Of a stretch of DNA of 64,000 nt, positions 28,371-54,659 are shown piece after piece. How positions within the stretch are numbered: the stretch's first letter is position 1; every line of letters starts with the position of its first letter. Position numbers and translations under genes: made by a program. The notes beneath the pieces were generated by a model, which saw only the letters and a program-made list of their open reading frames with translations, was not told the origin of the DNA and made no database searches. This stretch comes from a virus, in IMG/VR virus record IMGVR_UViG_3300020438_000012, positions 1-64,000 of that record, one strand, 5' to 3'.

Positions 28371-28739
28371 ATGCTTTGTGTTAAAGGACTGCGAGCGCTT
28401 TCGCAAGAACTTGATTACACTTTTGGCGGTTCAAATGGCGACTACAAAGTTTCTTATGACATTACTGAAGGAAGCTTCAAATTAAGATATAAGTCAATCT
28501 TTCAGTTTGCCGATAATCAAACGCTCAGACTACAAACTGATCGCTTAAACCAAACATCAGAAGACATGCTTAAAGAAGCTATGCGTCGAGGAAAGAGCGC
28601 TTACAATGATGCTTCTGAAGAAAGTTTGTCTACCAAGCTTGTTGGAGACAATGACGACGTTCAGTTGGTTGGAACAACCATTTACTCTCCTCGTAGGACC
28701 GCTTACTACACAAGGGTCATGACGTATAAGCTTGATTGA
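28371..28739 (+). CDS. hypothetical protein upstream of terminase
   Basis: GAGGT SD before ATG 28371; stop overlaps the terminase start. Confidence 0.55.
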   Translation: MLCVKGLRALSQELDYTFGGSNGDYKVSYDITEGSFKLRYKSIFQFADNQTLRLQTDRLNQTSEDMLKEAMRRGKSAYNDASEESLSTKLVGDNDDVQLVGTTIYSPRRTAYYTRVMTYKLD

Positions 28740-30343
28740 TGGCGCCGCGATCTAAACAGCGACAAATCAAGGAAATCGTAAAGTGCGGAAAGGAGCCTGT
28801 TTATTTCTTCAATCGTTATGTGAAGATTCAGCATCCTAACCGCGGCCTTATTGATTTTAAGACCTACGATTTTCAGGATGATTGTACGAAGGAATTTAAC
28901 GACCATCGCTTTAATATCGTCTTGAAGTCTAGGCAACTTGGTTTATCAACCCTTGTTGCAGCTTATGCTGCATGGCTAGCGGTGTTCTACAAAGACAAGA
29001 ATATCCTAGTCATTGCAACAAAGTTGGCTGTTGCTCAGAACTTTATCAGGAAAGTCAAGACTGTTATTCGTAACATGCCACCTTGGCTTTTAATTCCTGC
29101 AATAGTTGAGAACAACAAACAAAGTATCTTGTTCTCGAATGGAAGTCAAATTAAAGCAGTCCCTACGTCGGAAGATGCCGGTCGTTCCGAGGCCCTGTCT
29201 CTCTTGATTGTAGATGAGGCTGCTTTTGTTAGAAACTTTGACGAAGTTTGGAGAGGCCTGTATTCAACGCTTTCTACCGGTGGACGTGCAATTATCTTAA
29301 GCACACCAAATGGCGTTGGTAACATGTATCATAAATTGTACATCGACGCCGAAGCAGGGGTCAATCAGTTTAACGCCATTAAGCTTCTTTGGGACGTTCA
29401 TCCGGACAGAGGCGATAGTTGGTTTGAAGAAGAATGCAGGAACATGACCAAAATGCAAATTGCACAAGAATTAATGTGTGACTTTGCAGCTAGTGGAAAT
29501 ACGTTCCTAGAAAATTCAGACATTGAGTATTTGAGATCCTCGGTTCGACAACCAATAGAGAAATGGGGTCCGCAAGCTGGGGTTTGGTTGTGGAAATATC
29601 CAAAGCCTGGAACCAAATATGTTATTTCTGCAGATGTTGCAAGAGGAGACGGCGCAGACTTTAGTGCGTTTACAGTAATCGATACTAGCGAAAGTGAAAT
29701 TGTCTGCGAGTTTAAAGGCAAAAGTCCTCCCGACGAGTTTGCTTTGGTTCTTGCAGAAGCAGGAAGAAAATACAACGATGCATTACTCTGTCCAGAAAAC
29801 AATTCTTATGGTTATGCGTTAATCATGAAGCTCGTAGAGCTAGGTTACGAAAACATGTACTATGTCAACCCTAAACATAAGTTCGCTGCATCATATGGCT
29901 CGACAGACATATCAAAAATAGGCTTTGCAACAAACTCTAAAACAAGGAATCAAATTCTCACAAAACTTGAAGAAGTTCTTAGAAGGCACGAAATAAAGTC
30001 ATATTCATCTCGACTTTACGAAGAACTAAAAACATTTATTTGGAAGAATGGAAAGCTTCAAGCGCAGAAAGGGAAAAACGATGATTTAGTTATGTCGTTA
30101 GCAATAGGCGTGTGGCTTTACGATACCTCGCCGGCTCTGACACAGCAAGGCCAAAAAATGGCCGATGCAATGCTTGCAGCATTTGCGGTAAACTCAGCAC
30201 CACAAGAAAAGGATACGAGCCCTTTCTTTAACGATCGTGTGAAATCTAGGTATTATGACATATCAAGACCTATACTTACTAGTCAGGACCTTGCTCCTAA
30301 AAGCGAATCAACGATTCCTGATTACTGGTGGTTATTTAAATAA
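28739..30343 (+). CDS. terL: terminase large subunit (T4 gp17-like)
   Basis: Walker A KSRQLGLST, Walker B LLIVDEAAF, coupling motif LSTPNG, nuclease ISADVARG and DDLVMSLA. Confidence 0.95.
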   Translation: MAPRSKQRQIKEIVKCGKEPVYFFNRYVKIQHPNRGLIDFKTYDFQDDCTKEFNDHRFNIVLKSRQLGLSTLVAAYAAWLAVFYKDKNILVIATKLAVAQNFIRKVKTVIRNMPPWLLIPAIVENNKQSILFSNGSQIKAVPTSEDAGRSEALSLLIVDEAAFVRNFDEVWRGLYSTLSTGGRAIILSTPNGVGNMYHKLYIDAEAGVNQFNAIKLLWDVHPDRGDSWFEEECRNMTKMQIAQELMCDFAASGNTFLENSDIEYLRSSVRQPIEKWGPQAGVWLWKYPKPGTKYVISADVARGDGADFSAFTVIDTSESEIVCEFKGKSPPDEFALVLAEAGRKYNDALLCPENNSYGYALIMKLVELGYENMYYVNPKHKFAASYGSTDISKIGFATNSKTRNQILTKLEEVLRRHEIKSYSSRLYEELKTFIWKNGKLQAQKGKNDDLVMSLAIGVWLYDTSPALTQQGQKMADAMLAAFAVNSAPQEKDTSPFFNDRVKSRYYDISRPILTSQDLAPKSESTIPDYWWLFK

Positions 30344-30354
30344 GAGGGTAAAGA

Positions 30355-32283
30355 ATGGCTGACGAAGAAAGCCTTTTCAGTAGGCTGACAAAGTTGTTCA
30401 GGAGCGGTCCAACCGTTCGAAGAAAAGTTAAGAACTACAAAGTACCACTGGCGAGTGAAGAGTTAGACGTTTTTGGCTATGGCTCAAACAACGTTTATAA
30501 TGCCGCCTTAAGTGCATACGGCGCGTTTGATAGAATGAGCCGATACAGCGATTTCTCTGAAATGGAAGCAACACCAGAAATCGCTTCAGCTCTTGACATT
30601 TACTCGGAAGAAACCGTTTCTGTAGATGACAAAGGCAGGTCACTGCACATTTATAGTGATAACAGAAAGATCAAAGAGCTTTTAGATAACCTGTTCTACG
30701 ATATTTTAAATGTTGAATTTAACCTATCAATGTGGGTCAGAAATCTTTGTAAGTACGGAGACTTTTTCTTATTCATCGATGTGAATCCGGAATTTGGAGT
30801 TATGAACGCTTATCCGATTCCAATTGCTGAAATCGAAAGAGAAGAAGGCTTTGATCCTTCAGATCCAGCTGCGGTTAGGTTTAGATGGATATCGAGAGGA
30901 AACCAAGTCCTTGAAAATTGGCAAATTATCCATTTCAGACTTCTCGGCAATGATGCGTTTCTACCTTACGGATCCAGTGTTTTAGAAAGCGCAAGAAGAA
31001 TCTGGCGACAACTAATCCTTATTGAAGACGCAATGCTTGTGTATCGAGTTATTCGTGCACCTGAACGCAGAGTATTCTATATCGATGTTGGAAACATTTC
31101 TCCTGAAGATATTCCAACGTTCATGAAACAGGCACAGGATAGTCTTAAGAGAAACAAGGTCGTTGACAAAAACACCGGCCGCGTCGATCTTAGATATAAC
31201 CCACTATCTGTCGACGAAGATTACTTCCTTCCAGTTCGAGGAACTGAATCTGGAACAAGGATTGATACTCTAGCCGGTGGCCAAAACACTGCTGCTATCG
31301 AAGATGTCGAGTACATTCAGAAGAAACTGTTTGCAGCTCTAAAGATTCCTCGTGCTTACCTAGGTTATGACGAAGATATTGGTTCAAAGGCAACTTTAGC
31401 ACAGGAAGATATTAGATTCTCCCGAGCCATTCAGAGAATTCAGAAGACAGTTCTTTCCGAACTAAACAAGCTTGCAATCATTCACCTATACGCTCATGGC
31501 TTTTCGAACGAAGATCTTCTTGATTTTGAACTTAAGCTTTCGAATCCTTCATCGATTGCTCAACAGCAGAAGCTTGAACTGATTAGAACTAAGTTTGAGA
31601 TTGCTGCAGCAGCCCCTGAAGGAATCGCTGATCGAGAGTGGGTTCGTAGAAACGTTATGGGTTTCAACACTTCTGAAATCGAGGCAATCGAAAAAGGAAG
31701 AGAAGAAGACAAAAAGAGAGACGTTGAACTAGAGGCCGTTATCGCAGAGCCTGAACCTGGCGCTGCTCCGTCTGAAGCACCTCCGGGAGACGAAGGCGGC
31801 GGAAAAGATGACGCAGAAGATCTGTTCGCTAGCGACAATCGGGACGGTAAACTCCTAACCTCTCAGCGGCCTGAAAGCGATGAAGATGACGAACTGGCGC
31901 TTTCAATTGATGACATTGATGCACCAATCAAAGCCCAACAGAAAATTAAGAATGCTTTTGGTGAGCCGCTAAAAATTAAGAGAAGATCTAAGACATCTGC
32001 TAGTACGGCTGAAATGCCAAACATGTCAAAGATGGTTGCTGTTGGAAAGAAAGCCAGGACCCAAGACACAATGTCCCGCCCGTTTGATCGTGATTCCTTG
32101 AAAGGATTTTCAAAGATTAAGCTCGGCGAAGGCGACGATCCGTTTGCTGATCTTGTCGACAGACATACGAAGCAACATGCAACTATGACAAAAGAGTTGA
32201 GATCAACGCTAACTTCGATGAATACGAATCTAAATATTGATGTAAGTTCTTTGCTAAAAGAATCGGGGAACAATGATGAGTAA
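30355..32283 (+). CDS. portal protein (T4 gp20-like)
   Basis: QLILIEDAMLVYRVIRAPERRVFYIDVGN, EDYFLPVRG, IDTLAGGQN, DVEYIQKKLFAALKIP. Confidence 0.95.
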   Translation: MADEESLFSRLTKLFRSGPTVRRKVKNYKVPLASEELDVFGYGSNNVYNAALSAYGAFDRMSRYSDFSEMEATPEIASALDIYSEETVSVDDKGRSLHIYSDNRKIKELLDNLFYDILNVEFNLSMWVRNLCKYGDFFLFIDVNPEFGVMNAYPIPIAEIEREEGFDPSDPAAVRFRWISRGNQVLENWQIIHFRLLGNDAFLPYGSSVLESARRIWRQLILIEDAMLVYRVIRAPERRVFYIDVGNISPEDIPTFMKQAQDSLKRNKVVDKNTGRVDLRYNPLSVDEDYFLPVRGTESGTRIDTLAGGQNTAAIEDVEYIQKKLFAALKIPRAYLGYDEDIGSKATLAQEDIRFSRAIQRIQKTVLSELNKLAIIHLYAHGFSNEDLLDFELKLSNPSSIAQQQKLELIRTKFEIAAAAPEGIADREWVRRNVMGFNTSEIEAIEKGREEDKKRDVELEAVIAEPEPGAAPSEAPPGDEGGGKDDAEDLFASDNRDGKLLTSQRPESDEDDELALSIDDIDAPIKAQQKIKNAFGEPLKIKRRSKTSASTAEMPNMSKMVAVGKKARTQDTMSRPFDRDSLKGFSKIKLGEGDDPFADLVDRHTKQHATMTKELRSTLTSMNTNLNIDVSSLLKESGNNDE

Positions 32284-33100
32284 GCACAACAAGAAAAGAA
32301 ATGTTGGAATCGTGTACCAGCAAGTACTAAGAAGGGCTGCCGAAGCTGCTATTGATGGCGATAAGCCGCATGTAAACGAATGCGTAGAACTTCTAGGCCG
32401 CCATTTTAGACCAGGTACTGAACTGTATAAAGAGCATAAACTATTCAGCTCTATTCTGGAAACCGGTGGAGTTGATGAAAAAACTTCTGAGAAAGTTTTG
32501 TCTATCGTAAAGGAAGTTTCAAGATCTATTGACCAAAATGTAATTGAAAAACAGAAAGGTACATTTATCAACGAAGCAAATCGTGTTTTTGGGAAAGGTC
32601 AACTCTTTAATACACGCGTAAGCAACTACCGAGGACTTGCGACCGTTCAGTTGCTTCTTAACGAATGGAGAAACCCAGGTACTCTAACACCGACTCAGAC
32701 AGCGGAGTACGAAAGACGCCTTCAGGCATACATGATAACCGAAAAACAAGTCCCAACGCTTCAAAAAGAATCTAAGGTTGATGATTTAACCGTCGCAATG
32801 TTTAGAAAGAGATTTGATGATTCCTATGGATCAAAGCTCAGCAACCTTCAGAAAAACTTTGTAGCTGCCGTTGCTTTTAACAAACATGATGTAGTTGAGC
32901 AAATGATTTCAGAAGCAAAGGATAAGGCTATCGAGCTTCTAGATCGTAGACACTTAGGAGAAACTAACAAGCTTCTCTCGGAAAGATATGAAATTGTAAG
33001 AAAAAACATCATAGCATTTAATGGAAGCAGCGAAAGTACGGCATCTATGGCCATGACGCTGTTCAACCTAATCAAAGAGTTGGAGAGTGGCGATGTCTGA
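32273..33100 (+). CDS. head-cluster hypothetical protein
   Basis: KHNKKRNVG N-terminus; lies between portal and protease. Confidence 0.6.
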   Translation: MMSKHNKKRNVGIVYQQVLRRAAEAAIDGDKPHVNECVELLGRHFRPGTELYKEHKLFSSILETGGVDEKTSEKVLSIVKEVSRSIDQNVIEKQKGTFINEANRVFGKGQLFNTRVSNYRGLATVQLLLNEWRNPGTLTPTQTAEYERRLQAYMITEKQVPTLQKESKVDDLTVAMFRKRFDDSYGSKLSNLQKNFVAAVAFNKHDVVEQMISEAKDKAIELLDRRHLGETNKLLSERYEIVRKNIIAFNGSSESTASMAMTLFNLIKELESGDV

Positions 33101-33698
33101 TATTAGACTGATTACATCATGGCAGCCTTTTGAGTATGACTCAAAGATGGTAGCAGAGTCTCGTTTAGAAAATGCCGGAAAAATTATGATGAAAGGTATT
33201 TTGCAAAAAGCAAATACACTAAATCAAAACGGCAGAATTTACCCTCTCCCTATTCTTGAAAGAGAAGTGAGAAACTATCAGAAGTTTATTGAGGAAAAAC
33301 GAGCGCTCGGCGAGTGTGACCATCCAGAAAGTTCTGTGGTAGAACTAAAAAATGCTTCCCACATAATCAGGGAAGCTTACATGGAAGGAGATGTTTGTTG
33401 GGGAACTGTTGAACTCTTAGATACACCATCTGGCAAAATATTACAAAGCCTTGTTGAGTCCGGGGTCACCCTTGGAATATCTTCCCGTGGAGTTGGTTCA
33501 ACTAGAAGGGAAGGCGACTATCAGGTCGTTCAAGATGACTTTCAGCTAATTTGCTGGGATTTTGTTTCAGAGCCTTCAACCCCCGGAGCATTTATGATGA
33601 GAGAAGGTGTTGAAGTAAGAAGATCCGAACTAAACAAGCTGTTTACGAAGTCTGATAGGCTCTTTAGAATATACAACGAAATTACTGAATGGAAGTGA
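33093..33698 (+). CDS. prohead core protease (T4 gp21-like)
   Basis: NQNGRIYP, GECDHP, GISSRGVG, DFVSEPSTPGA; start ATG 33093 after GGAG. Confidence 0.93.
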   Translation: MSDIRLITSWQPFEYDSKMVAESRLENAGKIMMKGILQKANTLNQNGRIYPLPILEREVRNYQKFIEEKRALGECDHPESSVVELKNASHIIREAYMEGDVCWGTVELLDTPSGKILQSLVESGVTLGISSRGVGSTRREGDYQVVQDDFQLICWDFVSEPSTPGAFMMREGVEVRRSELNKLFTKSDRLFRIYNEITEWK

Positions 33699-33708
33699 GG
33701 AAAATAAT

Positions 33709-34167
33709 ATGGCAAAGATTTCTAAGACAGCGCTAAAAGGACTAATCAAGGAATGCCTTGTGGAAATCCTGCAAGAAGGATTGGCTACACAATTAATGGC
33801 TTCAGGTCCAACGCCAAGAAAGAAAAGCCGCCGCAAGCTATCTTCGATTAATTCTGCATCCCCAGGCATGAACGAGCGTTCTGATCCTAGAAATCGCAGA
33901 AACTTCAATCCAACACTCGATACCCCGGTTGCCAGTCTATCTGAAAGAATTTCTCCAACCATCGCGCGCGTATCTAGTGACCCTTCAATTCAGGCATTAC
34001 TTGAAGATACAGCCGCAACAACGTTAAAAAATCAACACAGCGCAGAAAATCAGAGAGGGCCTCAAGCTCAAACCGATGTTCCTCTAGAATCCCTGGGTGT
34101 CAATGTTCGCAACTGGGCAGCCATGGCTTTTTCTGAAGAGAAGAACGATTCGTCTAAACTGGGATAA
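33709..34167 (+). CDS. putative prohead core/internal protein with leader-like N-terminus
   Basis: MAKISKTALKGLIKECLVEILQE resembles the array leader; follows the protease gene. Confidence 0.55.
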   Translation: MAKISKTALKGLIKECLVEILQEGLATQLMASGPTPRKKSRRKLSSINSASPGMNERSDPRNRRNFNPTLDTPVASLSERISPTIARVSSDPSIQALLEDTAATTLKNQHSAENQRGPQAQTDVPLESLGVNVRNWAAMAFSEEKNDSSKLG

Positions 34168-34171
34168 CGGC

Positions 34172-34178
34172 ATACTTA
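34172..34178 (+). promoter_or_regulatory. ATACTTA candidate late promoter
   Basis: Intergenic, before GGAGG SD and ATG 34199. Confidence 0.6.
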
Positions 34179-34198
34179 TCACATGTGGAGGTTGACGC

Positions 34199-34465
34199 AT
34201 GAAAAAAATGTCGGTCACAAGACTTCGTAAATTTATTTTAGAAGAAGCTGCAAAAGTAAACGAGACACTCGAACAAGGTAAAGCAGATGTTGAATCTGTT
34301 AATGCGGATGAAACAGACGCAGAAGATCTTGCTAATACTTTAGAGAAAGATTTAGATCACATGAAAGCTTTAAAGATTCACGAAACAAGAATCCGAAGAA
34401 AGCTTGAAAAGATCTCAGAGGCAAAGAAAACTGTCCGCTCTAGAATTATGAAGAGGCTAAAGTAA
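34199..34465 (+). CDS. putative prohead core/internal protein
   Basis: MKKMSVTRLRKFILEEAAKVNE leader-like start; helical and charged. Confidence 0.55.
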   Translation: MKKMSVTRLRKFILEEAAKVNETLEQGKADVESVNADETDAEDLANTLEKDLDHMKALKIHETRIRRKLEKISEAKKTVRSRIMKRLK

Positions 34466-34960
34466 ATGCCAAGCGTGAAGCAGACAACAGTTGACCCAGC
34501 TGCATCAACAAGAGGCATGGGATCTAGCGATACCGAAGCTTTGACTGAGGCATTTCCTGCTTCACCAATTCATGCTGGTGATATTACTAGAAATTCTCTA
34601 GAGGTCCAATATAACGACCTTGCACTCCAGGGTGTTGTAAGAAACGGTCTTGGAATTTCGTCATACGATCGAGATTTTACAGGGGCAGACTCCGGAGTTG
34701 CGTTTCCAGACGGCGATGTTGCAACTGGTGCCGCAGGACTACCGGCGTCTCAATACGTTCCAAACCCAGCTTCACCTGGACCTGGAAGTCAAAACCCAAC
34801 GGATTTACCAGCGCCACCTGCTGGATTTGGCGAAACACCGAATGGGGATACATACGGTTCAGGCACCGGCGCACTTACAAGGCCAGCTGATACTTCAAAA
34901 ACCATTGCTCGCCACACACTTGGTTCTTATGGGTTAGGAACTTCAGAACCAACAAAGTAG
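34466..34960 (+). CDS. Pro/Gly-rich head-cluster protein
   Basis: 164 aa; YVPNPASPGPGS motif. Confidence 0.55.
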   Translation: MPSVKQTTVDPAASTRGMGSSDTEALTEAFPASPIHAGDITRNSLEVQYNDLALQGVVRNGLGISSYDRDFTGADSGVAFPDGDVATGAAGLPASQYVPNPASPGPGSQNPTDLPAPPAGFGETPNGDTYGSGTGALTRPADTSKTIARHTLGSYGLGTSEPTK

Positions 34961-34967
34961 GCGCTAA

Positions 34968-35561
34968 ATGCCTAAAATAAAAAAGTACGGCCTTAACCGA
35001 GAAAACCACTCGCGCTTTCCGCAGATGGATACGCGAAACGATCTTGGTTATGGCCGTACTAAGTTAAAATTTAGTAAACCTAGACCTTCGGCGAGTTCCT
35101 ACCCCTATAGCATGAACGATGAACAAGAGAAAGAATCTGAAAATTTGCAAGATGTAGAGGTCGAGGACGTCCCTAGAAAAGCGATGACAAAAGTTCGTCG
35201 ACACGTAAGGGTTAACGATTTTGGTGCTGCAGCAGGAACAGACCCTTTTTATTATGCTGGTGCAGCAACTAAAATTAGCGAACAGCAATCTGCAAATAGC
35301 AAAGGTGGAATTGGCGTAACTCTTCCAGCCGGCATAGGATCTTCGACCTCTGGGTTTAGGTCAATTACTAGACCTACTGGAACTAAGAGAGGGTTTTCCT
35401 CTGCACCGTATACGATCGATAATTCTGAAACCAAAAATCGACTCGTAGATTTTGTTGATGACGACGATAAAAGTCTAAGATTATTTGTCAGAACAATCTT
35501 GGCAAAAGAAAAAGAGCGAAACTCAAAACAGAATAATCGGTTTCAAAAGAATACTTACTAA
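34968..35561 (+). CDS. hypothetical head-cluster protein
   Basis: 197 aa, low-complexity, basic ends; C-terminal LRLFVRTILAKE. Confidence 0.5.
   Translation: MPKIKKYGLNRENHSRFPQMDTRNDLGYGRTKLKFSKPRPSASSYPYSMNDEQEKESENLQDVEVEDVPRKAMTKVRRHVRVNDFGAAAGTDPFYYAGAATKISEQQSANSKGGIGVTLPAGIGSSTSGFRSITRPTGTKRGFSSAPYTIDNSETKNRLVDFVDDDDKSLRLFVRTILAKEKERNSKQNNRFQKNTY
35551..35557 (+). promoter_or_regulatory. ATACTTA candidate late promoter
   Basis: At the 3' end of the upstream gene, before GAGG SD and scaffold ATG 35579. Confidence 0.55.
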
Positions 35562-35578
35562 AGTCCAAGAGGATTTGA

Positions 35579-37093
35579 ATGAAAAATTCAATGTACGAAC
35601 AAGCAATTCTGGATGCTCAAAACCTTCGAAAGATGGCTGAAGAGTCCGCAAAAAACAAGCTCATCGAAGCTGTAATGCCACAACTTCGAGAAATTATTGA
35701 GAACGATGTAATTTCTCCAGTAGTGAGCGAATCTATGGAGATCGAAGAAGATCACTGTATGAACGATGCGGAAGAGAAGGAAAATGACGATCTTCTCCTT
35801 GATGAAAACGAGGATGATGAAGACGACATGAATGAAGCCGACATGATGGCGCTGGCGGCATTGGTTGAGGCAACGTCTCACCAAAAAAAGGGTAACCTTA
35901 ACGAAAGACTTTCAATTGTTAGGAAAAAGCTGGCAAGAATGCTGGTGATTTCTGAATCAATAGATCCTAAGCAACTTCAGGCAGACCATGCGTTTGTTTT
36001 TATGAAGAAGCTGAATGCTCTCATTAAAGAAACTATGCAAATCAAAAATGAGGCAATACTTATAAAAGAATCCGGAGACCACCGGTTCTACAATAAATCT
36101 GATAAAACTCTACAGGAGATAAAAGAAATGGCACGTCGTATGAACAGGGGAGTCTTTGCTAGGCTCTTTGAAGCAGATAAGCTTAATGAGCTTGATGCTA
36201 CCCTCGTGCTCGAGCCTTCCGAGGACGAAGCTGATGAGGTCGAGGAGCTACTAGGCGACCTGGACATCGATGTTGAGCTCGGTGGTGCAGACGAGGATGA
36301 GGATGAGGATGATGCAGGCGACATGGACGCTGACGAGGAAGAGGACGATGAAGAAATCGAACTTGACCTTGGCGAAGCTGACATGGACGAAATGGATCAT
36401 GGCAAAAAGGAAGGGTACCACGAGATGGACGAGATGGACGAGATGGATGAGGACATGGACGAGGTCTATGAAATCGACGAGTCTACTCTTCGCCGTGCAC
36501 TTCGAGCCCTTCGAGAAGGTGATGCTGCCGAAAAGGCAGATCAATTTGGTGGAGCTGAAGTCGAAGGCGACGTAATTGTCGACCTTGACGAAGATGATCT
36601 ACTACATGCACTTAATGATGTACTTGGCGACGCTCCGGTTCCGAGACCACCACTTGGTGAGTCACGCCGCAGCCGCCGAAAGTCTAGACGTTCGCGAGTA
36701 AATGAGAGTCGCAAGAATCGTACTCTTATCTCCGAGCTTTCACGGGCCAAAAAGGCCAACGGCGAATTGAAGAAGCATCTCCAAGAGATGAACCTTTTTA
36801 ACGCCAAGCTACTCTACGCAAACAAGCTGATGCAGAATAAGAGCCTCAGTACGCGTCAGCAGAGAGCTGTTGTCGAGGCACTCGATAGTGCCAAGACACT
36901 TAGGGAAGCAAAGCTTCTCTTCCAGAGCCTGTCAAGCGGAGTCAAGAAGGGCAAGGCCCTTTCTGAGTCAACTAGCAGGGTCCGCGGTTCTTCGTCAAAA
37001 TCAACGCCACGTGCTAGCGCTAAGCCGCTACAAGAAGGTGCTGGGCAGACGGATCGTTGGGCAATCTTGGCTGGCATTCCAGGCAAGAAGTAA
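35579..37093 (+). CDS. prohead scaffold/core protein
   Basis: Very acidic centre with MDE repeats, coiled-coil C-terminus (EMNLFNAKLLYANKL), terminal RWAILAGI; directly upstream of the major capsid gene. Confidence 0.8.
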   Translation: MKNSMYEQAILDAQNLRKMAEESAKNKLIEAVMPQLREIIENDVISPVVSESMEIEEDHCMNDAEEKENDDLLLDENEDDEDDMNEADMMALAALVEATSHQKKGNLNERLSIVRKKLARMLVISESIDPKQLQADHAFVFMKKLNALIKETMQIKNEAILIKESGDHRFYNKSDKTLQEIKEMARRMNRGVFARLFEADKLNELDATLVLEPSEDEADEVEELLGDLDIDVELGGADEDEDEDDAGDMDADEEEDDEEIELDLGEADMDEMDHGKKEGYHEMDEMDEMDEDMDEVYEIDESTLRRALRALREGDAAEKADQFGGAEVEGDVIVDLDEDDLLHALNDVLGDAPVPRPPLGESRRSRRKSRRSRVNESRKNRTLISELSRAKKANGELKKHLQEMNLFNAKLLYANKLMQNKSLSTRQQRAVVEALDSAKTLREAKLLFQSLSSGVKKGKALSESTSRVRGSSSKSTPRASAKPLQEGAGQTDRWAILAGIPGKK

Positions 37094-37122
37094 CAACAAC
37101 AAACCCATTAGGAGAGATAAAG

Positions 37123-39030
37123 ATGTCACGTAAGTTTAGTCTTAATACGCTCACCGAGGGTATCCGTCAAAGGCACCTTGGTCAGCAAAACTCCCGTCTC
37201 CTCGAGAAGTGGTCACGTACCGGTCTTCTTCGTGGACTCGACGGGCAGAAGAGAGAAAACATGTCGATGCTCTTGGAGAATCAGGCCGCCCAGGCCCTCC
37301 GTGAGTCATCCACAATCGGTGCAGGCGGCGGAGCCGGCACTGCTTCAGGCGATCTCGGTGGTTTCACCAACATCGCATTCCCAATCGTTCGTAGAGTATT
37401 CGGCGGCCTAGTTGCCAACGAGCTCGTTTCAATCCAGCCGATGAGCCTGCCTTCTGGCCTGCTTTTCTACTTGGATTACACCTATGGTTCCGTGAATGGT
37501 TCAGCTCAGTCTGATAATGATGTGTATACGTCTGGTTCATCGATCTACGGAAACCCTTCAGGCAAGTCACTTCAAACCGGCGCAGCGCAGGCTGGCGGTA
37601 TGTACGACCTCGCTGGTTCAGGTTACTCTAGAGTTTATCAGGAAGCAGGTGCTATTAACCTAATCACTTCAGGTGCTTTTAAGGGTACCTCGGCGATGGT
37701 TGCTACCGCTGTTCTTGACGCTACCGGCTCCGATGGCGCCCTGATTCAGTTTGACCCAGCCCTTACAACTCTCATCGAGGGCGTAAAGGGTGCAGGTGCA
37801 ACAGCCGACAGTTACTCGGCCGTTGTTGTCAAGGCTAACACGATCCAAGCGTCGTCAAATCAGCCTGTTGACTTTACTGCGATTAAGGAAATTGGTCTAT
37901 TCGCCCCGGGTGATACAACTCCATACGGCCCAGTTAGTTCTGACCTCCAAGGTCAAGGCAAGGGACTGATTAACGTTCGTCGCCTTAACCAGCTAGTTAG
38001 AGTTTCTCCTTCCGGTGCAACTGGTGCTTCTGTTACGGGGATCACACCAATTTCGACTATCACTGATCCTACTGGTGATGCTGATGTCGGCGTTCTGTTT
38101 ATCGTCTCAGGTACACAGACTGCAGCTACCGCGGCAACTTTAAAGCTTCAGTACGTCCAGGATCCAAACTTCACGTCATCTAGTGGCGAGACGCTTGTTA
38201 TCCCAACGTTCGAGTCTAACTTTGGCGCAACTCCTTCTCCTGAGATCCCAGAGATCGACATCAAGATTGAGTCTATTCCGGTTGTCGCTGACACCCGTAA
38301 GTTGCGTGCGAAGTGGTCGCCAGAGCTTGCTCAGGACCTCAACGCCTACCACAGCCTTGACGCTGAGGTTGAGCTTACCCAGATTCTTTCGGCTCAGATC
38401 GCTCTTGAGATCGACCGTGAGATCCTTAACGACTTGTTGCAGGGCGCCGCTGGTGCTAACTTCTTCTGGTCACGTTCGCCTGGTAACTTCGTTGACAAGA
38501 CCACCGGCGTTGAAGCTTTCCGTTCTTCTACTCTTGCGTCTGGTCCGGCATTCACCGGTACGGTTCGTGAGTGGTATGAGACTCTTATCGAGACGATCAT
38601 CGACGTTGGTAATACCATCCACCGTAAGACTCTCCGCGGCGCGGCGAACTTCATCGTGGTTGGCCCAGACGTTGCAACGATCCTCGAGGCTTCTGTCTAC
38701 TACCGTCCGTCTCTGAGCATCGACGGTGATGGTCAGGTTGCTACTCCATTCAGCCTAGGTGCTGAAAAGGTTGGCACTCTTTCCAATCGTTTCACAGTCT
38801 ACAAGGATCCATACTTCCCACGGAACAAGATTCTCGTCGGATACAAGGGTGGTTCCTACCTCGAGACTGGTTACGTCTACGCTCCGTACGTGCCGTTGAT
38901 CATCACGCCTACAATCTTTGCCCCAGAGGACTTCACCCCGCGTAAGGGTGTTATGACTCGCTACGGCAAGAAGCTTGTTCGTGCCGACTTCTACGGTACC
39001 GTCACCTGCCTTAAGATGAACATTATTTAA
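37123..39030 (+). CDS. major capsid protein (T4 gp23-like)
   Basis: LLENQ, FPIVRRVF, VSIQPMSLPSGLLFY, RKLRAKWSPELAQDLNAYH, EIDREIL, YAPYVPL, RKGVMTRYG; true start ATG 37123 after AGGAG. Confidence 0.96.
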   Translation: MSRKFSLNTLTEGIRQRHLGQQNSRLLEKWSRTGLLRGLDGQKRENMSMLLENQAAQALRESSTIGAGGGAGTASGDLGGFTNIAFPIVRRVFGGLVANELVSIQPMSLPSGLLFYLDYTYGSVNGSAQSDNDVYTSGSSIYGNPSGKSLQTGAAQAGGMYDLAGSGYSRVYQEAGAINLITSGAFKGTSAMVATAVLDATGSDGALIQFDPALTTLIEGVKGAGATADSYSAVVVKANTIQASSNQPVDFTAIKEIGLFAPGDTTPYGPVSSDLQGQGKGLINVRRLNQLVRVSPSGATGASVTGITPISTITDPTGDADVGVLFIVSGTQTAATAATLKLQYVQDPNFTSSSGETLVIPTFESNFGATPSPEIPEIDIKIESIPVVADTRKLRAKWSPELAQDLNAYHSLDAEVELTQILSAQIALEIDREILNDLLQGAAGANFFWSRSPGNFVDKTTGVEAFRSSTLASGPAFTGTVREWYETLIETIIDVGNTIHRKTLRGAANFIVVGPDVATILEASVYYRPSLSIDGDGQVATPFSLGAEKVGTLSNRFTVYKDPYFPRNKILVGYKGGSYLETGYVYAPYVPLIITPTIFAPEDFTPRKGVMTRYGKKLVRADFYGTVTCLKMNII

Positions 39031-50639: not shown

Positions 50640-50930
50640 ATGAAAATCACAAAACGACAACTTAGAAGAATCATCAAGGAGGCAATGCACTCCGAGTATG
50701 AGGATCTCTTCGACAACTCCCCGCCTCGACGCAAGGAGTCAATGCACTCCGACCCTCGCGAAGAAGCGCGAGATATTCTGCGACACTACGATATGATAGC
50801 GTCAGATGTTGGCGAGATCTATGTTGATGATTTAATCGATCACTGGGTTGGTCAAGGAAACCCTTCGCCAGGCCCTGGTGTTCGGGCGGAATTGATCAAG
50901 CTAAATTACGGAAACGAATATTTTAGGTGA
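50640..50930 (+). CDS. leader-array protein 1
   Basis: MKITKRQLRRIIKEA; start 50640 rather than 50598. Confidence 0.8.
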   Translation: MKITKRQLRRIIKEAMHSEYEDLFDNSPPRRKESMHSDPREEARDILRHYDMIASDVGEIYVDDLIDHWVGQGNPSPGPGVRAELIKLNYGNEYFR

Positions 50931-50939
50931 TGGTTTAAA

Positions 50940-51206
50940 ATGCGAATTACAAAGCGACAGCTTAAAACAATCATTAAGGAAGAGAGGTTCCGTCTTTTGA
51001 ACGAGGCCTCGCTTCAGCGTTCCAAGGCCCAGGTAGAAAATGCTTTGGGCAGCTTGCTCGTTGATTACATGGAAGAGCACTTGGACATGAGCGGCTCAAA
51101 TAGAGAAGACGCTTTGCGTCGTGCAAAGGAAGACCTCAAAAGCTTCGTTCGTGGCGCAATTGCAAACGCAGTAGACTTTGAACGAGATCCGCAGTCATAC
51201 ACTTGA
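50940..51206 (+). CDS. leader-array protein 2
   Basis: MRITKRQLKTIIKEERFRLLNE. Confidence 0.8.
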   Translation: MRITKRQLKTIIKEERFRLLNEASLQRSKAQVENALGSLLVDYMEEHLDMSGSNREDALRRAKEDLKSFVRGAIANAVDFERDPQSYT

Positions 51207-51224
51207 TACACTTAGGGAAATACA

Positions 51225-51488
51225 ATGAAAATTACAAAGAGACAACTTAGAAGAATCATCAAGGAAGAGAGAACGCGCATTCTCAGTGAGAACATGCATG
51301 ACGCTCAGGGTTTCTACGAGAAGAAGCTCACAATTCTCAACACAGCACTTTCGGCCCTAGAGGCAGCCAAGGATCACGAGAGAACAAGTGCAATGGGCGA
51401 AGATCCTGATCTAAACCAGCTTGTTAACATGGTCATTGGTTACATCGATGCCGTTGGTTCCATGGTTCAAATGGGAAGGCGCAGATAA
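51225..51488 (+). CDS. leader-array protein 3
   Basis: MKITKRQLRRIIKEERTRILSE. Confidence 0.8.
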   Translation: MKITKRQLRRIIKEERTRILSENMHDAQGFYEKKLTILNTALSALEAAKDHERTSAMGEDPDLNQLVNMVIGYIDAVGSMVQMGRRR

Positions 51489-51489
51489 A

Positions 51490-51828
51490 ATGAAAATCAC
51501 TAAAAGACAACTAAGAAGAATCATCAAGGAAGCCGCTATGCCGGGAGAAATGGTCAAAGTCACCGTTTCAATGGACGTTCCGTTCGGCTTGTTCCTTGAT
51601 GTCGACGACCGCCGGCCGAACCCAGAAATGGAAAGTTTGGAAGATATTGAGATGAATATCGAGGACGCATTGCGCGACTGGTTACAGCAATCTCTCAGAG
51701 AATTTCAGGGAGGCAACAGTGCTGCGTTTAAGGGCAAGCAGGGTGTTGAGCAACTTAGTCATGTCGAAATAATTGAAACCGCAACCTATTCAGCAATGGA
51801 TGACATCAAAGTATCAGTGAAGAGGTAA
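51490..51828 (+). CDS. leader-array protein 4
   Basis: MKITKRQLRRIIKEA; start 51490 rather than 51421. Confidence 0.8.
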   Translation: MKITKRQLRRIIKEAAMPGEMVKVTVSMDVPFGLFLDVDDRRPNPEMESLEDIEMNIEDALRDWLQQSLREFQGGNSAAFKGKQGVEQLSHVEIIETATYSAMDDIKVSVKR

Positions 51829-51830
51829 CC

Positions 51831-52091
51831 ATGAAAATCACAAAGTCACAACTGAAGAGAATCATCAAGGAAGAAAGAGCTAAACTCGTGAACGAGGCTC
51901 CTTCGGAAGACCTTATTACACTAGCCGCCATAGAAAACCATATTGGCATGCTAAAGCGTATGCTTGATGTGGCGGTAGACGGGGGCATGATGTCCTACAA
52001 TGAACATGACGACCTGGTCGACGCGCTCTACGATGTGGAAGGCGCGCTTCAAAAAGTAGCAGAAGGCGGCTCCGGCGCTCCGAGTTTCTAA
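51831..52091 (+). CDS. leader-array protein 5
   Basis: MKITKSQLKRIIKEERAKLVNE. Confidence 0.8.
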   Translation: MKITKSQLKRIIKEERAKLVNEAPSEDLITLAAIENHIGMLKRMLDVAVDGGMMSYNEHDDLVDALYDVEGALQKVAEGGSGAPSF

Positions 52092-52107
52092 AAGGATTAC
52101 CAAGCAT

Positions 52108-52524
52108 ATGAAAATCACGAAGCGCCAGCTTAGAAGAATCATCAAGGAAGAGTTGACTCGCGGTAGATACGATGAGTTAACCGACGAGTTGTCAGACTTG
52201 TACTCCAAGATCGAAGACGCAAAAAGTTTACCTGAACCAAATCGCACTGCCTCTTTTCAGTTTTACCAGAATGCCATCAATCAGCTTCAAGCTTATCTTG
52301 CAAAAGCTCGTGCGGAAGGCCTTTCAGAAATAAGCGAAGACTCGAATCCCGGTGATTACTACGCCAGAAAGGATCGAGAAGCTCGCGCACTTTCCGGCCA
52401 AGTTAATGCAATGCGTAAAAAGTTAAGCGGTTTACGTCAAGGTTCTCCCGAGCATCGCAAAGCCACTAAAGAACTCCGGGGACTAGAACAACGCCTTGAG
52501 TTAGCAAAGTATGTAGGAGATTAA
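52108..52524 (+). CDS. leader-array protein 6
   Basis: MKITKRQLRRIIKEEL. Confidence 0.8.
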   Translation: MKITKRQLRRIIKEELTRGRYDELTDELSDLYSKIEDAKSLPEPNRTASFQFYQNAINQLQAYLAKARAEGLSEISEDSNPGDYYARKDREARALSGQVNAMRKKLSGLRQGSPEHRKATKELRGLEQRLELAKYVGD

Positions 52525-52525
52525 C

Positions 52526-52795
52526 ATGAAAATTGCAAAACGACAGCTTAGAAGAATTATCAGGGAAGAGAAGCAGAGAGTCATCAATGAAAAACTTGCC
52601 GGACACCAGCATCAAAGACTGCTTGAAGACATTAGCATCATGTTTGAGAAAGAAATAAACACAAGGCTCAGCCAGGTCGACGGCGACTGGTATAGAGACC
52701 CTGAAACAGTGCAGGCTGTATCCGATATGCTTGACATGCTAAAGCGGCAAATGAAGTCATATGGGAAAGAGCGCTCTTGGTGGAGGGAGCGGTGA
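52526..52795 (+). CDS. leader-array protein 7
   Basis: MKIAKRQLRRIIREEKQRVINE. Confidence 0.8.
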   Translation: MKIAKRQLRRIIREEKQRVINEKLAGHQHQRLLEDISIMFEKEINTRLSQVDGDWYRDPETVQAVSDMLDMLKRQMKSYGKERSWWRER

Positions 52796-53058
52796 AAATC
52801 ACAAGGCACCAACTCAGAAGAATCATTAAGGAAGAGAAGGCCCGGCTAGCCGAGGCAAACCCTGACGGAACTGTGTCCGACAACGAGGATGCAGAGATTT
52901 TTGTCTTTCTTGCCGACGTTGAGGAACGCATCGAAGAGCTCGCGCAATTCATTGTAATGGAGTCTGAGAGAATCGGTGGTCGCTTCAGAGCACCCGGGCT
53001 TAGAAAGAGAGCGTTTCAGTCGATCCTCGAAATCATTCGTGAAGACTATAGGTTTTAG
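52792..53058 (+). CDS. leader-array protein 8
   Basis: GTG start at 52792 after GGAGGGAG; (M)KITRHQLRRIIKEEKARLAE. Confidence 0.8.
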   Translation: MKITRHQLRRIIKEEKARLAEANPDGTVSDNEDAEIFVFLADVEERIEELAQFIVMESERIGGRFRAPGLRKRAFQSILEIIREDYRF

Positions 53059-53130
53059 AGTTTCGCGACGAAGCTCGTCAGCGTATCATGAACAATTTAG
53101 AGCACGCTTCAAACCAAAAAGGAAAGTAAA

Positions 53131-53556
53131 ATGAGAATCACAAAGAGGCAGCTTAGAAGAATTATTAAGGAAGAGAGATCACGTCTGCTTGCGGAGACCC
53201 GCGTTCGCCGTTTTGTAAGACGAAAGCTTATGGAACAGCGCGGAACTGCGGTCATTGATGAACTTGCCGTGGACTTGCTGAGGGATCTCACCATGTATCA
53301 CCAGCGAGGCGTCGACTCTCTGGCTAATGAGTACAGATCTAGAGTTGCTGCACTTGGGCTTAGCAGAGAAGATTTCGAGGAGCAACTCGGCGATGCCTTC
53401 ACTGACGGTGATCCAGAGGCTGCATCTCGTTTTGAAGAGTATCGTGATGAGGAAGACGCAATGCGCGACGGAATGCCTCACAACGAAGAGATGGCTGCAG
53501 CATGGGACGACTTTGGTTTGATCCGGCGTGATTTGGCAGCAGCACTGTACCGATAG
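53131..53556 (+). CDS. leader-array protein 9
   Basis: MRITKRQLRRIIKEERSRLLAE; C-terminal domain shared with protein 10. Confidence 0.8.
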   Translation: MRITKRQLRRIIKEERSRLLAETRVRRFVRRKLMEQRGTAVIDELAVDLLRDLTMYHQRGVDSLANEYRSRVAALGLSREDFEEQLGDAFTDGDPEAASRFEEYRDEEDAMRDGMPHNEEMAAAWDDFGLIRRDLAAALYR

Positions 53557-53564
53557 GAAGTTCT

Positions 53565-54455
53565 GTGCGAATTAGAATTACGAGAACTCAGCTGCGTAGA
53601 GTCATTAGGGAATCCTGCCGCAGGATGGGTTCTCGTAATTCCTCTATTCGCTTGCTAGAAGATAATCACACCTATTGGGACCGATACCACGCGAAATGGC
53701 TCGAAACCGCACAGATGAGTGAGGAAGATTTTCAAGCGCTCGCGGACGAGTACAGGGCCATGGCCGCCGCCGGTGAAAAGGCGGCGAAGGGATACAAGGA
53801 GCGCGACCCAGACAACGTCCCTCAGGGTCCATGGACCGGTAATCGCGAGTATTGGAAAAACCCTGACATGAAAGGTTACAAGTTTACAGCGCGTCATCGG
53901 AATGTCGTCCCGCCCATGAATCTTGACATTCGACCCGAATACCCTATATTGTTTGGTATGTCTCTCGAAGATGCTTACAATATCCACGCGGCCTCGCCCG
54001 CCGGGTTATATCCCTATGGTTCTGGCAAGCCGGCGGGGACGGGGTACGCGGACTACGTGGAATACTACACGCGGAAAGACGTGAAGGCTCGCATTGCTCA
54101 AGCGAAAAAAAAATTCGCAAGTACACCGAAAGCCAAGCGTGATTTTGAAGACGAGCGCTACAGATGGGCGATCTGGCAGGTCGGCGACGAAGGACCTCCA
54201 GAAGCAGTCATAGATGATCTTGCTTTGGACTTGTTGAGAAACGTTCGCAAGTACGCCAAGAGCGGCGTCGGGCGCCTGGCCGGCAGATACAGGAAAAAAA
54301 TCCTTAAGCTTGGAATGAGTAAGGAAGATTTTGACACTGCGTTTGGCGATGCCATGACGGACGGTGATCCAGAAGTCTCTGACCGATTTTACAGGTACAA
54401 GGGTGATGATCTCCCGCAACTCATAAATGACTTAGTGTCAAAAATATATCGATAA
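53565..54455 (+). CDS. leader-array protein 10
   Basis: MRIRITRTQLRRVIRES; C-terminal GDAMTDGDPE domain shared with protein 9. Confidence 0.8.
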   Translation: MRIRITRTQLRRVIRESCRRMGSRNSSIRLLEDNHTYWDRYHAKWLETAQMSEEDFQALADEYRAMAAAGEKAAKGYKERDPDNVPQGPWTGNREYWKNPDMKGYKFTARHRNVVPPMNLDIRPEYPILFGMSLEDAYNIHAASPAGLYPYGSGKPAGTGYADYVEYYTRKDVKARIAQAKKKFASTPKAKRDFEDERYRWAIWQVGDEGPPEAVIDDLALDLLRNVRKYAKSGVGRLAGRYRKKILKLGMSKEDFDTAFGDAMTDGDPEVSDRFYRYKGDDLPQLINDLVSKIYR

Positions 54456-54464
54456 GGAATTTCA

Positions 54465-54659
54465 ATGCGAATCACAAAGCGCCAGCTTAAAAGAATCATT
54501 CTCGAAATGTACCATGATGACCAGCCGGATAGCATCTCGCAGAGACTAAAACTACGAAATGATATCGGAGAGCTGTCAATGAGCTTTGTTAGAACCGGTC
54601 TTGACAGAGACGAGGTTGCAGGAATCTTGCGTGACGTTGCAGACGGAATTGAGAGATAG
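54465..54659 (+). CDS. leader-array protein 11
   Basis: MRITKRQLKRIILEM. Confidence 0.75.
   Translation: MRITKRQLKRIILEMYHDDQPDSISQRLKLRNDIGELSMSFVRTGLDRDEVAGILRDVADGIER

What the first reader, a model, noticed from the sequence alone, without database searches (positions are those of the whole stretch)
33709..36520. The same leader-like helix occurs in head-assembly genes, linking the array to the prohead core
Seen: the two genes right after the protease start MAKISKTALKGLIKECLVEILQE (33709) and MKKMSVTRLRKFILEEAAKVNE (34199), matching the KIT..QL..IIKEE...xNE pattern. The scaffold has PQLREIIE and IDESTLRRALRALREG, and gene 34968 ends with LRLFVRTILAKE. Inference: the motif is a core-assembly helix that the array proteins use to co-assemble with the scaffold. 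This is independent positional support for the packaging hypothesis.
Basis: partly seen in the sequence, partly recalled or inferred. Interest (0 to 1): 0.75.

Follow-up and report, generated by a model that had tools for sequence, protein, structure and literature searches.

The report
Cargo-array leader shared with head genes
Two conserved small genes next to the head protease of this uncultured T4-like ocean phage start with the same kind of short helix that tags its array of 13 variable small proteins, so the tag is probably a "load into the head, then cut off" signal like phage T4's, though no loading or cutting has been measured.

Summary
All quoted peptides are at the stated coordinates. 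Two of the five claimed occurrences are real matches to the array leader (MKITKRQLRRIIKEE): the N-termini of geneA (33709) and geneB (34199), just after the gp21-type protease.

- Profiles built only from geneA or geneB orthologs pick array members as their best other hits in this genome (E down to 7.6e-4).
- Profile-profile scores are 26-28. The best of 500 control windows scores 13.7, and 220 column shuffles never exceed 15.4.
- The two scaffold segments and the geneD segment are conserved but score at background level.

Both N-termini are predicted helices under peptide-level selection. They carry [ILV]-x-E, the motif T4's gp21 protease cuts after, at the same two positions as the leader.

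Best reading: a T4-style capsid-targeting propeptide shared by conserved head-module proteins and variable cargo, as in T4 (gp24, Alt, internal proteins). Binding to the scaffold, cleavage and a core role for geneA and geneB are all inferred.

This scan has already found such leader arrays on other DNA, and this array itself. The head-gene link is the new part.

The parts
33087..33698 (+). Prohead maturation protease (T4 gp21 type)
   Evidence: Pfam Peptidase_S77 1.2e-25; PHROG 207 head maturation protease 1.1e-48
33709..34167 (+). geneA: conserved 152-aa head-module protein of unknown family
   Evidence: Found next to the protease in 75 of 80 related loci. More than 1300 relatives, all unnamed. 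AF2: helix 6-31, disordered 32-66, helix 92-115. [LI]-x-E motifs enriched, z 3.4.
33709..33783 (+). geneA leader-like N-terminal helix (residues 1-25): MAKISKTALKGLIKECLVEILQEGL
   Evidence: Most conserved part of the protein. Invariant L9 K10 K14 E15 C16 E19 L21, encoded by freely varying synonymous codons. Aligns to leader positions 2-24 (hhalign probability 84-94%). I-K-E15 and L-x-E23 are followed by G/A/S.
34199..34465 (+). geneB: conserved 88-aa helix-loop-helix head-module protein of unknown family
   Evidence: Present in 71 of 80 related loci. AF2: helix 6-25, acidic loop, helix 42-87, pLDDT 78. No Pfam, PHROG or PDB relative.
34199..34270 (+). geneB leader-like N-terminal helix (residues 1-24): MKKMSVTRLRKFILEEAAKVNETL
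   Evidence: Orthologs read K[LI]TPxLL[RK][KR][ILM]V[LM][EQ]E[KR]x[KR][ILM]xE. The geneB-family HMM retrieves array members at E 7.6e-4 to 7e-3. The array HMM hits geneB orthologs of other phages at 17 bits, E 0.003. hhalign probability 87-94%.
34968..35561 (+). geneD; near-C-terminal LRLFVRTILAKE at 35475-35510
   Evidence: The motif is conserved in orthologs, but its similarity to the leader is at background level (11.8).
35579..37093 (+). Putative scaffold (gp22 position); PQLREIIE at 35678-35701 and IDESTLRRALRALREG at 36473-36520
   Evidence: Lies between the protease and the capsid gene and is acid-rich. It has 24 [LI]-x-E motifs against 10.1 expected, z 5.3. No sequence match to T4 gp22. 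Both quoted segments are conserved but score 10.9-12.6 against the leader and geneB profiles, which is background.
37120..39030 (+). Major capsid protein (gp23 type)
   Evidence: Pfam Gp23 7e-75. L-R-E61|S lies about where T4 gp23 is cut.
50640..54659 (+). Array of 11 small genes that all start MKITKRQLRRIIKEE (the comparison set)
   Evidence: Two more members lie outside the window at genome positions 68439 and 68654.

Best explanation
The first ~15-25 residues of geneA and geneB form a basic amphipathic helix of the same motif family as the array leader: [KR]-[ILV]-[ST]-x-x-x-L-[KR]-x-[ILV]-[IV]-x-E, followed about 8 residues later by [ILV]-x-E. The most likely function is a T4-type capsid-targeting propeptide. 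It would dock its carrier into the assembling prohead core, and the phage's gp21-type protease would then cut it off after one of the two Glu residues. GeneA and geneB are the conserved carriers, encoded inside the head module. The 13 array proteins are variable cargo using the same address.

Shown:
- the motif family is shared;
- it sits at the N-terminus;
- it is predicted to be helical;
- selection acts on the peptide;
- a gp21-type protease is encoded;
- cut motifs are enriched in the head-module proteins.

Inferred: docking, the docking partner, cleavage, and a core role for geneA and geneB.
For: - Reciprocal profile searches: the geneB-family and geneA-family HMMs pick array members as their best non-self hits in the genome (E 7.6e-4 to 4e-3).
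- The array HMM hits geneB orthologs in other phages (17 bits, E 0.003 among 18,833 segments).
- hhalign scores of 26-28 against at most 13.7 for 500 control windows and at most 15.4 for 220 column shuffles.
- The motif starts at residue 2-3, downstream of a Shine-Dalgarno sequence.
- The segments are predicted helical: geneB 6-25 and geneA 6-31.
- Invariant residues are encoded by many synonymous codons.
- The two aligned Glu positions each follow [ILV]-x. In geneA the residue after E23 is G, A or S.
- The protease belongs to Peptidase_S77. T4 gp21 cuts after L/I-x-E, and T4 propeptides of 10-20 residues target internal proteins, Alt and gp24 into the core (PMC9026906, PMC5694885).
- [LI]-x-E is enriched in the scaffold (z 5.3), geneA (3.4), MCP (2.7), gene 32273 (2.7) and geneB (2.0). 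It is not enriched in the coiled-coil SbcC-like protein, TerL, the portal or sheath 2.
- In 92 leaders from five relatives, the sequence diverges right after IIKE.
- A second lineage with the leader MIKLKDLLKE has MKLKDILEE on the gene right after its protease and MAKSDLLKEA at a scaffold N-terminus. These are the top two of 1688 N-termini.
- T4's own tag MKTYQEFIAE resembles the gp22 N-terminus MLKEQLIAEA, and gp24 starts MAKINELLRE.
Against: - There are no proteomic, cleavage or packaging data for this uncultured phage.
- Array-profile scores for this genome's own geneA and geneB are weak (E 0.09 and 0.46). The link therefore depends on ortholog profiles.
- GeneA and geneB show no detectable homology to T4 gp67, gp68 or internal proteins.
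- The scaffold itself has no sequence match to gp22.
- The leader is strongly basic, unlike T4's tag, so the docking chemistry may differ.
- The geneA helix is more conserved and longer than a disposable tag needs to be. It may be part of the mature protein.
Confidence: 0.6

Rival explanations
1. GeneA and geneB are not assembly or core components. They are simply the oldest, conserved members of the same cargo class (ejected internal proteins) that happen to be encoded in the head module. The shared leader then says nothing extra about a core link.
For: T4 internal proteins and Alt are also built into the core and are not essential (PMC9026906). In the second lineage, the gene after the protease (MKLKDILEESIGGIV...) has a paralog in an array of the same contig (MIKLKDLLKESIGGIV...). 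No homology to gp67 or gp68 was found.
Against: GeneA and geneB are present in nearly all related loci at a fixed place between protease and scaffold. Array contents, by contrast, are hypervariable. GeneA and geneB are largely disordered or helical and rich in cut motifs, like T4 core proteins.
Confidence: 0.22
2. The shared helix is only a protease recognition and cleavage propeptide, for example one that keeps the proteins inactive or soluble until maturation. It has no targeting role.
For: Conserved [ILV]-x-E at two aligned positions. The protease gene is adjacent.
Against: T4 gp21 needs only L/I-x-E (PMC9026906). A 14-residue near-invariant leader (92 variants) and invariant non-cut-site residues in geneA (L9, K10, K14, C16, L21) exceed what a cut site needs. 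In T4, targeting maps to the residues upstream of the cut site (PMC9026906).
Confidence: 0.12
3. The resemblance is chance or composition. Any basic amphipathic helix at the N-terminus of a small phage protein would look alike.
For: With single sequences of this genome the scores are marginal. The scaffold and geneD 'matches' are indeed at background level.
Against: Of 500 control windows, including long coiled coils, the best scores 13.7 against 26-28. None of 220 column shuffles reaches the observed scores. Reciprocal HMM searches give E below 0.01 and only array members as top hits.
Confidence: 0.03
4. The conserved element acts at the DNA or RNA level, for example as a translation-control site or a recombination block, and not as a peptide.
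Against: GeneA and geneB are only 58% and 51% identical to the array leaders at the nucleotide level. Invariant residues of the geneA leader use 2-6 synonymous codons in near-equal numbers across 50 orthologs.
Confidence: 0.02

Closest known systems
Phage T4 capsid targeting sequence (CTS): N-terminal propeptides of IPI, IPII, IPIII, Alt and the vertex protein gp24, removed by the gp21 prohead protease
   Same: A short N-terminal peptide is shared by otherwise unrelated head proteins and ends in [IL]-x-E. A gp21-family protease is encoded in the same head module. Both a conserved head protein (T4 gp24: MAKINELLRE|S) and variable cargo (internal proteins: MKTYQEFIAE|A) carry such propeptides (PMC9026906, PMC5694885, PMC3012670).
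   Different: The sequence is different, longer and strongly basic (14-25 residues, two nested cut motifs). It is carried by 13 array genes here and by 13-39 in relatives of 242-293 kb, against four cargo proteins (IPI-III and Alt) in T4. The conserved carriers are two new small protein families, not a capsid paralog. Nothing has been tested experimentally.
T4 prohead core proteins gp67 and gp68
   Same: Small, charged, largely helical or disordered proteins encoded beside the protease gene and rich in cut motifs. T4 gp67 even contains IDLIKEEK.
   Different: No detectable homology (hhalign probability below 1%; no Pfam or PHROG hit). They lie downstream of the protease, not upstream.
Propeptides of giant-phage (phiKZ, 201phi2-1, SPN3US) inner-body and ejection proteins cut by gp21-like proteases
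   Same: Many head-internal proteins are processed after Glu by a gp21 homolog. Conserved N-termini between diverged paralogs are thought to act as targeting signals (PMC5694885, PMC9026906).
   Different: Those propeptides are mostly longer than 100 residues and are not one short portable tag on unrelated small proteins.
Leader arrays of other uncultured T4-like phages noted earlier in this scan (for example MIKLKDLLKE)
   Same: The architecture is the same: one short tag ending in the cut motif on many unrelated proteins. In that lineage the tag also recurs on a protease-adjacent gene and on a scaffold N-terminus.
   Different: The tag sequence differs. Those notes are unpublished AI notes. 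Only four contigs were examined here.

Membership tests
T4-type capsid targeting propeptide (CTS) | Lies at the extreme N-terminus and is about 10-20 residues long | tested here: met
   The motif starts at residue 2-3 of geneA and geneB, and both starts have a Shine-Dalgarno sequence. Orthologs keep this position.
T4-type capsid targeting propeptide (CTS) | Ends in the prohead protease motif L/I-x-E | tested here: met
   GeneA has I-K-E15 and L-Q-E23 followed by G. GeneB has I-L-E14 and V-N-E22 followed by T. Both are aligned with I-K-E14 and L-x-E22 of the leader.
T4-type capsid targeting propeptide (CTS) | The phage encodes a gp21-family prohead protease | tested here: met
   Peptidase_S77 at 1.2e-25, immediately upstream.
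T4-type capsid targeting propeptide (CTS) | Shared by proteins that are otherwise unrelated | tested here: met
   GeneA, geneB and the array proteins align only over the first ~25-35 residues.
T4-type capsid targeting propeptide (CTS) | The propeptide is removed during head maturation | not testable with these tools
   Needs virion or prohead mass spectrometry, or an in vitro protease assay.
T4-type capsid targeting propeptide (CTS) | The peptide is necessary and sufficient to carry a protein into the prohead | not testable with these tools
   Needs fusion-protein packaging experiments.
Array leader family (MKITKRQLRRIIKEE) | Significant match to the leader profile | tested here: inconclusive
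   The array profile scores this genome's geneA at E 0.09 and geneB at E 0.46. But it hits geneB orthologs elsewhere at E 0.003. The reciprocal geneA and geneB family profiles hit array members at E 7.6e-4 to 4e-3. hhalign gives 84-94%. GeneA and geneB are best treated as related but distinct subfamilies.
T4 gp67 / gp68 prohead core proteins | Sequence homology to gp67 or gp68 | tested here: not met
   hhalign probability 0.1-0.6%. No Pfam or PHROG match.
T4 gp67 / gp68 prohead core proteins | Small protein encoded beside the protease and cut into fragments by it | tested here: inconclusive
   Adjacency is met. [LI]-x-E is enriched at z 3.4 (geneA) and 2.0 (geneB). Cleavage itself was not tested.
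T4 gp22 scaffold (for ORF 35579-37093) | Sequence homology to gp22 | tested here: not met
   BLASTP E above 1; no Pfam hit. The scaffold assignment rests on position, acidity and cut-motif enrichment of z 5.3.

The most novel reading that the evidence does not exclude
In T4-like phages generally, cargo tags may arise by copying the N-terminal docking propeptide of that lineage's own conserved head-module proteins. Here the models would be geneA and geneB. In the MIKLKDLLKE lineage they would be the scaffold and the gene after the protease. In T4 they would be the gp22 and gp24 N-termini. If this holds, comparing head-module N-termini with the rest of the proteome would predict the whole capsid-delivered protein set of any uncultured T4-like phage. 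The docking partner could then be found through co-variation.
Probability: 0.3. Interest if true: 0.65.

Novelty: new member of a known kind. Interest (0 to 1): 0.45.

Why it matters
The shared helix ties the hypervariable leader array to the head-assembly module by sequence evidence that does not depend on the array itself. That strengthens the reading that this abundant ocean phage clade loads 13-39 diverse small proteins per genome into its capsids, probably to deliver them into the host.

It also defines two widespread unnamed protein families (more than 1300 relatives for geneA) as probable prohead components.

Finally, it suggests a practical rule for finding capsid cargo in uncultured T4-like phages: look for proteins whose N-terminus copies that of the protease-adjacent head genes.

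Tried and rejected
- Scaffold PQLREIIE, scaffold IDESTLRRALRALREG and geneD LRLFVRTILAKE as further leader copies. They are conserved in orthologs but score 10.9-12.6, within the control range. The scaffold TP-x-I-R-x-L-I-E element also occurs in phages where the geneA and geneB profiles found nothing and the array-leader profile found nothing (Mel-JY01) or one gene (immuto).
- Homology of geneA and geneB to T4 gp67 and gp68, and of the scaffold to gp22: none.
- Pfam, PHROGs and PDB sequence searches for geneA and geneB: nothing meaningful.
- Names from 5.8 billion proteins for the geneA family: only 'hypothetical'.
- A literature search for the leader string: no paper.
- Co-variation between the array leader and the geneA and geneB leaders within this clade: not possible, because the array leader is almost invariant.
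- A DNA- or RNA-level explanation: rejected.
- Co-folding the leader with scaffold segments: not possible, because the structure tool folds single natural chains only.
- The large representative-protein search was not used.
Full report
**Context**

The window is the first 64 kb of a 102,473-bp contig of an uncultured T4-like phage. The head module reads:
- large terminase, 28736-30343;
- gp20-type portal, 30355-32283 (Pfam Portal_T4, 1e-75);
- an unnamed conserved gene, 32273-33100;
- gp21-type prohead protease, 33087-33698 (Peptidase_S77, 1.2e-25);
- four small unnamed genes: geneA 33709, geneB 34199, geneC 34466 and geneD 34968;
- an acid-rich 504-aa protein in the scaffold position, 35579-37093;
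- a gp23-type capsid protein, about 37120-39030.

The 'array' the finding refers to is at 50640-54659. It holds 11 tandem genes that all begin MKITKRQLRRIIKEE. Two more members lie at genome positions 68439 and 68654. An earlier follow-up in this scan (e1-5984810) already read that array as an expanded T4-like capsid-targeting tag. My task was the claimed recurrence of the tag in the head genes.

**Observation**

Every quoted peptide is at its stated place. The one inexact statement is that gene 34968 'ends with' LRLFVRTILAKE: 16 residues follow it.

It gave a marginal result.
- With a profile of 104 distinct leaders against 865 ATG-started N-termini, geneA ranks 14th (E 0.09) and geneB 17th (E 0.46). 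They come just after the 11 ATG-started array members.
- Two genes outside the window score about the same, at genome positions 91982 and 89298.

The case becomes strong once orthologs are used. A scan with the protease returned 80 related marine viral loci. GeneA is present in 75 of them and geneB in 71, always right after the protease. Their N-termini are the best-conserved parts of the proteins:
- geneA: MAK[ILV][ST][KR]xxLKx[LI][VI]KECL[VF]EILxEGL;
- geneB: K[LI]TPxLL[RK][KR][ILM]V[LM][EQ]E[KR]x[KR][ILM]xE.

The statistics are as follows.
- An HMM built only from geneB orthologs, searched against the six-frame translation of this genome, returns geneB and then eight array members in a row (E 7.6e-4, 9.5e-4, 2.2e-3, 7.2e-3 and upward). 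They align over the leader region.
- The geneA-family HMM returns geneA and then five array members, the best two at E 0.003-0.004.
- In the other direction, the array-only HMM finds geneB orthologs of other phages, for example RRITPSFLRRIVKEEARKLQSE at 17 bits and E 0.003 among 18,833 segments.
- Profile-profile scores are 26-28, with probability 84-94%.
- Among 500 thirty-column control windows from 18 conserved families of the region, including a 1028-aa coiled-coil protein and the scaffold, the next best score is 13.7.
- Among 220 column shuffles of the geneA and geneB windows, the mean is 7.5, the sd 2 and the maximum 15.4.

The three other claimed occurrences fail the same test. PQLREIIE, IDESTLRRALRALREG and LRLFVRTILAKE are each conserved in orthologs but score 10.9-12.6, inside the control range. 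The scaffold element TP-x-I-[RQ]-x-[LM]-[IV]-E is also found in scaffolds of more distant phages (Flavobacterium phage immuto, Microcystis phage Mel-JY01, LR756508). In those phages the geneA and geneB family profiles found no match, and an empty result from this tool is weak evidence. It looks like a general scaffold feature.

**What the motif is**

- It is a peptide-level feature. Across 50 distinct geneA orthologs, the invariant residues L9, K10, K14, E15, C16, E19 and L21 are each encoded by two to six synonymous codons in comparable numbers.
- GeneA and geneB are only 58% and 51% identical to the array leaders at the DNA level.
- AlphaFold2 with the ortholog alignments predicts helix 6-25 in geneB (then an acidic loop and helix 42-87) and helix 6-31 in geneA (then a disordered linker and a conserved helical C-terminal part).
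- The alignment puts two Glu residues in register in all three families. Each follows [ILV]-x: I-K-E14 and L-x-E22 in the leader, I-K-E15 and L-x-E23 in geneA, I-L-E14 and V-N-E22 in geneB.
- In geneA the residue after E23 is G, A or S in all 50 orthologs.
- In 92 distinct leaders from five relatives of 242-293 kb, which carry 13-39 leader genes each, the sequence is near-invariant to IIKE. After that it either diverges or continues to the second motif.

**Mechanism**

T4's gp21 cuts after L/I-x-E. Short N-terminal propeptides of 10-20 residues, the capsid targeting sequences, carry the internal proteins, Alt and gp24 into the prohead core and are then cut off. The residues upstream of the cut site do the targeting (PMC9026906, PMC5694885, PMC3012670).

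This phage encodes a gp21 homolog next to geneA and geneB. [LI]-x-E motifs are enriched over shuffles in:
- the putative scaffold (24 against 10.1, z 5.3);
- geneA (z 3.4);
- gene 32273 and the capsid protein (z 2.7 each);
- geneB (z 2.0).

They are not enriched in the coiled-coil SbcC-like protein, the terminase, the portal or sheath 2. The capsid protein has L-R-E61|S about where T4 gp23 is cut.

I therefore read the shared helix as a targeting-plus-cleavage propeptide common to two conserved head-module proteins and the variable cargo (confidence about 0.6). Docking, the docking partner, cleavage and a core role for geneA and geneB are all inferences. GeneA and geneB show no homology to T4 gp67 or gp68, and the 'scaffold' shows none to gp22.

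**A wider pattern (lead, modest evidence)**

- The gene right after one protease starts MKLKDILEESIGG. It has a paralog with the full tag elsewhere in the same contig.
- One scaffold starts MAKSDLLKEAIADAK.
- These two are the top hits of that lineage's leader profile among 1688 N-termini (E 0.026 and 0.043).

In T4 itself the tag MKTYQEFIAE|A resembles the gp22 N-terminus MLKEQLIAEA, and gp24 starts MAKINELLRE|S. Cargo tags may thus generally copy the N-termini of a lineage's own head-module proteins. This rests on short peptides and few genomes.

**Comparison and novelty**

Sharing of a protease-clipped targeting propeptide between a conserved head protein and variable cargo is established in T4. 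The present case is a new sequence family, on two new unnamed protein families, in an abundant uncultured marine clade. The geneA family has more than 1300 relatives, all 'hypothetical'. I found no paper containing the leader string.

Leader-like genes also occur in the 484-kb uncultured phage LR756508 (8 genes) and once in the cultured Flavobacterium phage immuto. The immuto gene offers an experimental handle.

I rate the finding a new member of a known kind, of moderate interest. It is useful mainly as independent support for the capsid-cargo reading of the array and as a possible rule for cargo prediction.

Noticed in passing
G000 contig, 89298-89810 and 91982-92212 (+), outside the window: Two further genes have leader-like N-termini (MNTRKAKLLKRLISEATDE and MSKFNLRGVIRQEIVRSLEQ). 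They score like geneA against the leader profile (E 0.06-0.09). MTKRQLYHI at 97756 may be another. These could be diverged carriers of the same tag.
   Followed up: partly
G000 contig, 68439 and 68654 (+), outside the window: Two more genes with the full array leader (MKITKRQLRKLVLEA, MKITKRQLKKLINEEKARL) lie apart from the main array.
   Followed up: partly
L229:2645-3403 (Flavobacterium phage immuto_3-5A, immuto35A_190): A cultured phage has one 252-aa hypothetical protein starting MKKSQLRQIIKEAL, a leader-like N-terminus. It could allow an experimental test by virion proteomics.
   Followed up: partly
LR756508.1 (484-kb uncultured phage), e.g. 194332, 189655, 143588, 161569: Eight genes start with a related leader (MRLSERKLRRIVKEEISRVL, MKLTERRLKRIILDE and others). 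The geneA and geneB family profiles found no match in this record.
   Followed up: partly
window 33754-33756 (Cys16 of geneA): A cysteine directly after the first candidate cut site (K-E15|C16) is invariant in all 55 aligned geneA orthologs. No reason is known.
   Followed up: no
window 36473-36520 and 35475-35510: The scaffold segment EIDxxxLRRELRRLRE and the near-C-terminal geneD segment [LV]Rx[FI][VI]Rx[IV]LxKE are each conserved across relatives. Their roles are unknown. They are not significantly leader-like.
   Followed up: partly
window 32273-33100: The gene between portal and protease is conserved in all relatives. Its N-terminus resembles genes at the same place in Mel-JY01 and the second lineage (KHSKYKNTG..FELL.RQITADI). 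[LI]-x-E is enriched (z 2.7). It is possibly another core protein.
   Followed up: no
L008:10606-11010, L011:7894-8409, L012:5507-6509: Many relatives have one or two extra genes (134-171 aa, for example MSTNWPNLNHNYVPEYQ and MSMNWPEPGINEVGEYLVSGRPF) inserted between the protease and geneA. This window lacks them.
   Followed up: no
L082:4118-4147 against L114 (T4 ipII, ipIII); L082:7324-7353: T4's own tag MKTYQEFIAEA resembles the N-terminus of its scaffold gp22 (MLKEQLIAEA). The gp24 propeptide MAKINELLRE resembles the MIKLKDLLKE tag of the second lineage. I did not find this stated in the papers I read.
   Followed up: partly
window 43816-47025 and 47060-50095: Two adjacent ORFs of about 1000 aa (1069 and 1011 aa) with similar N-termini look like tail-sheath paralogs by position. 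No family search was run on them.
   Followed up: no
protein P0030: A geneA relative on a 278-kb contig is labelled in NCBI as from a 'Euryarchaeota archaeon' MAG. It is probably a phage contig binned with the wrong organism.
   Followed up: no
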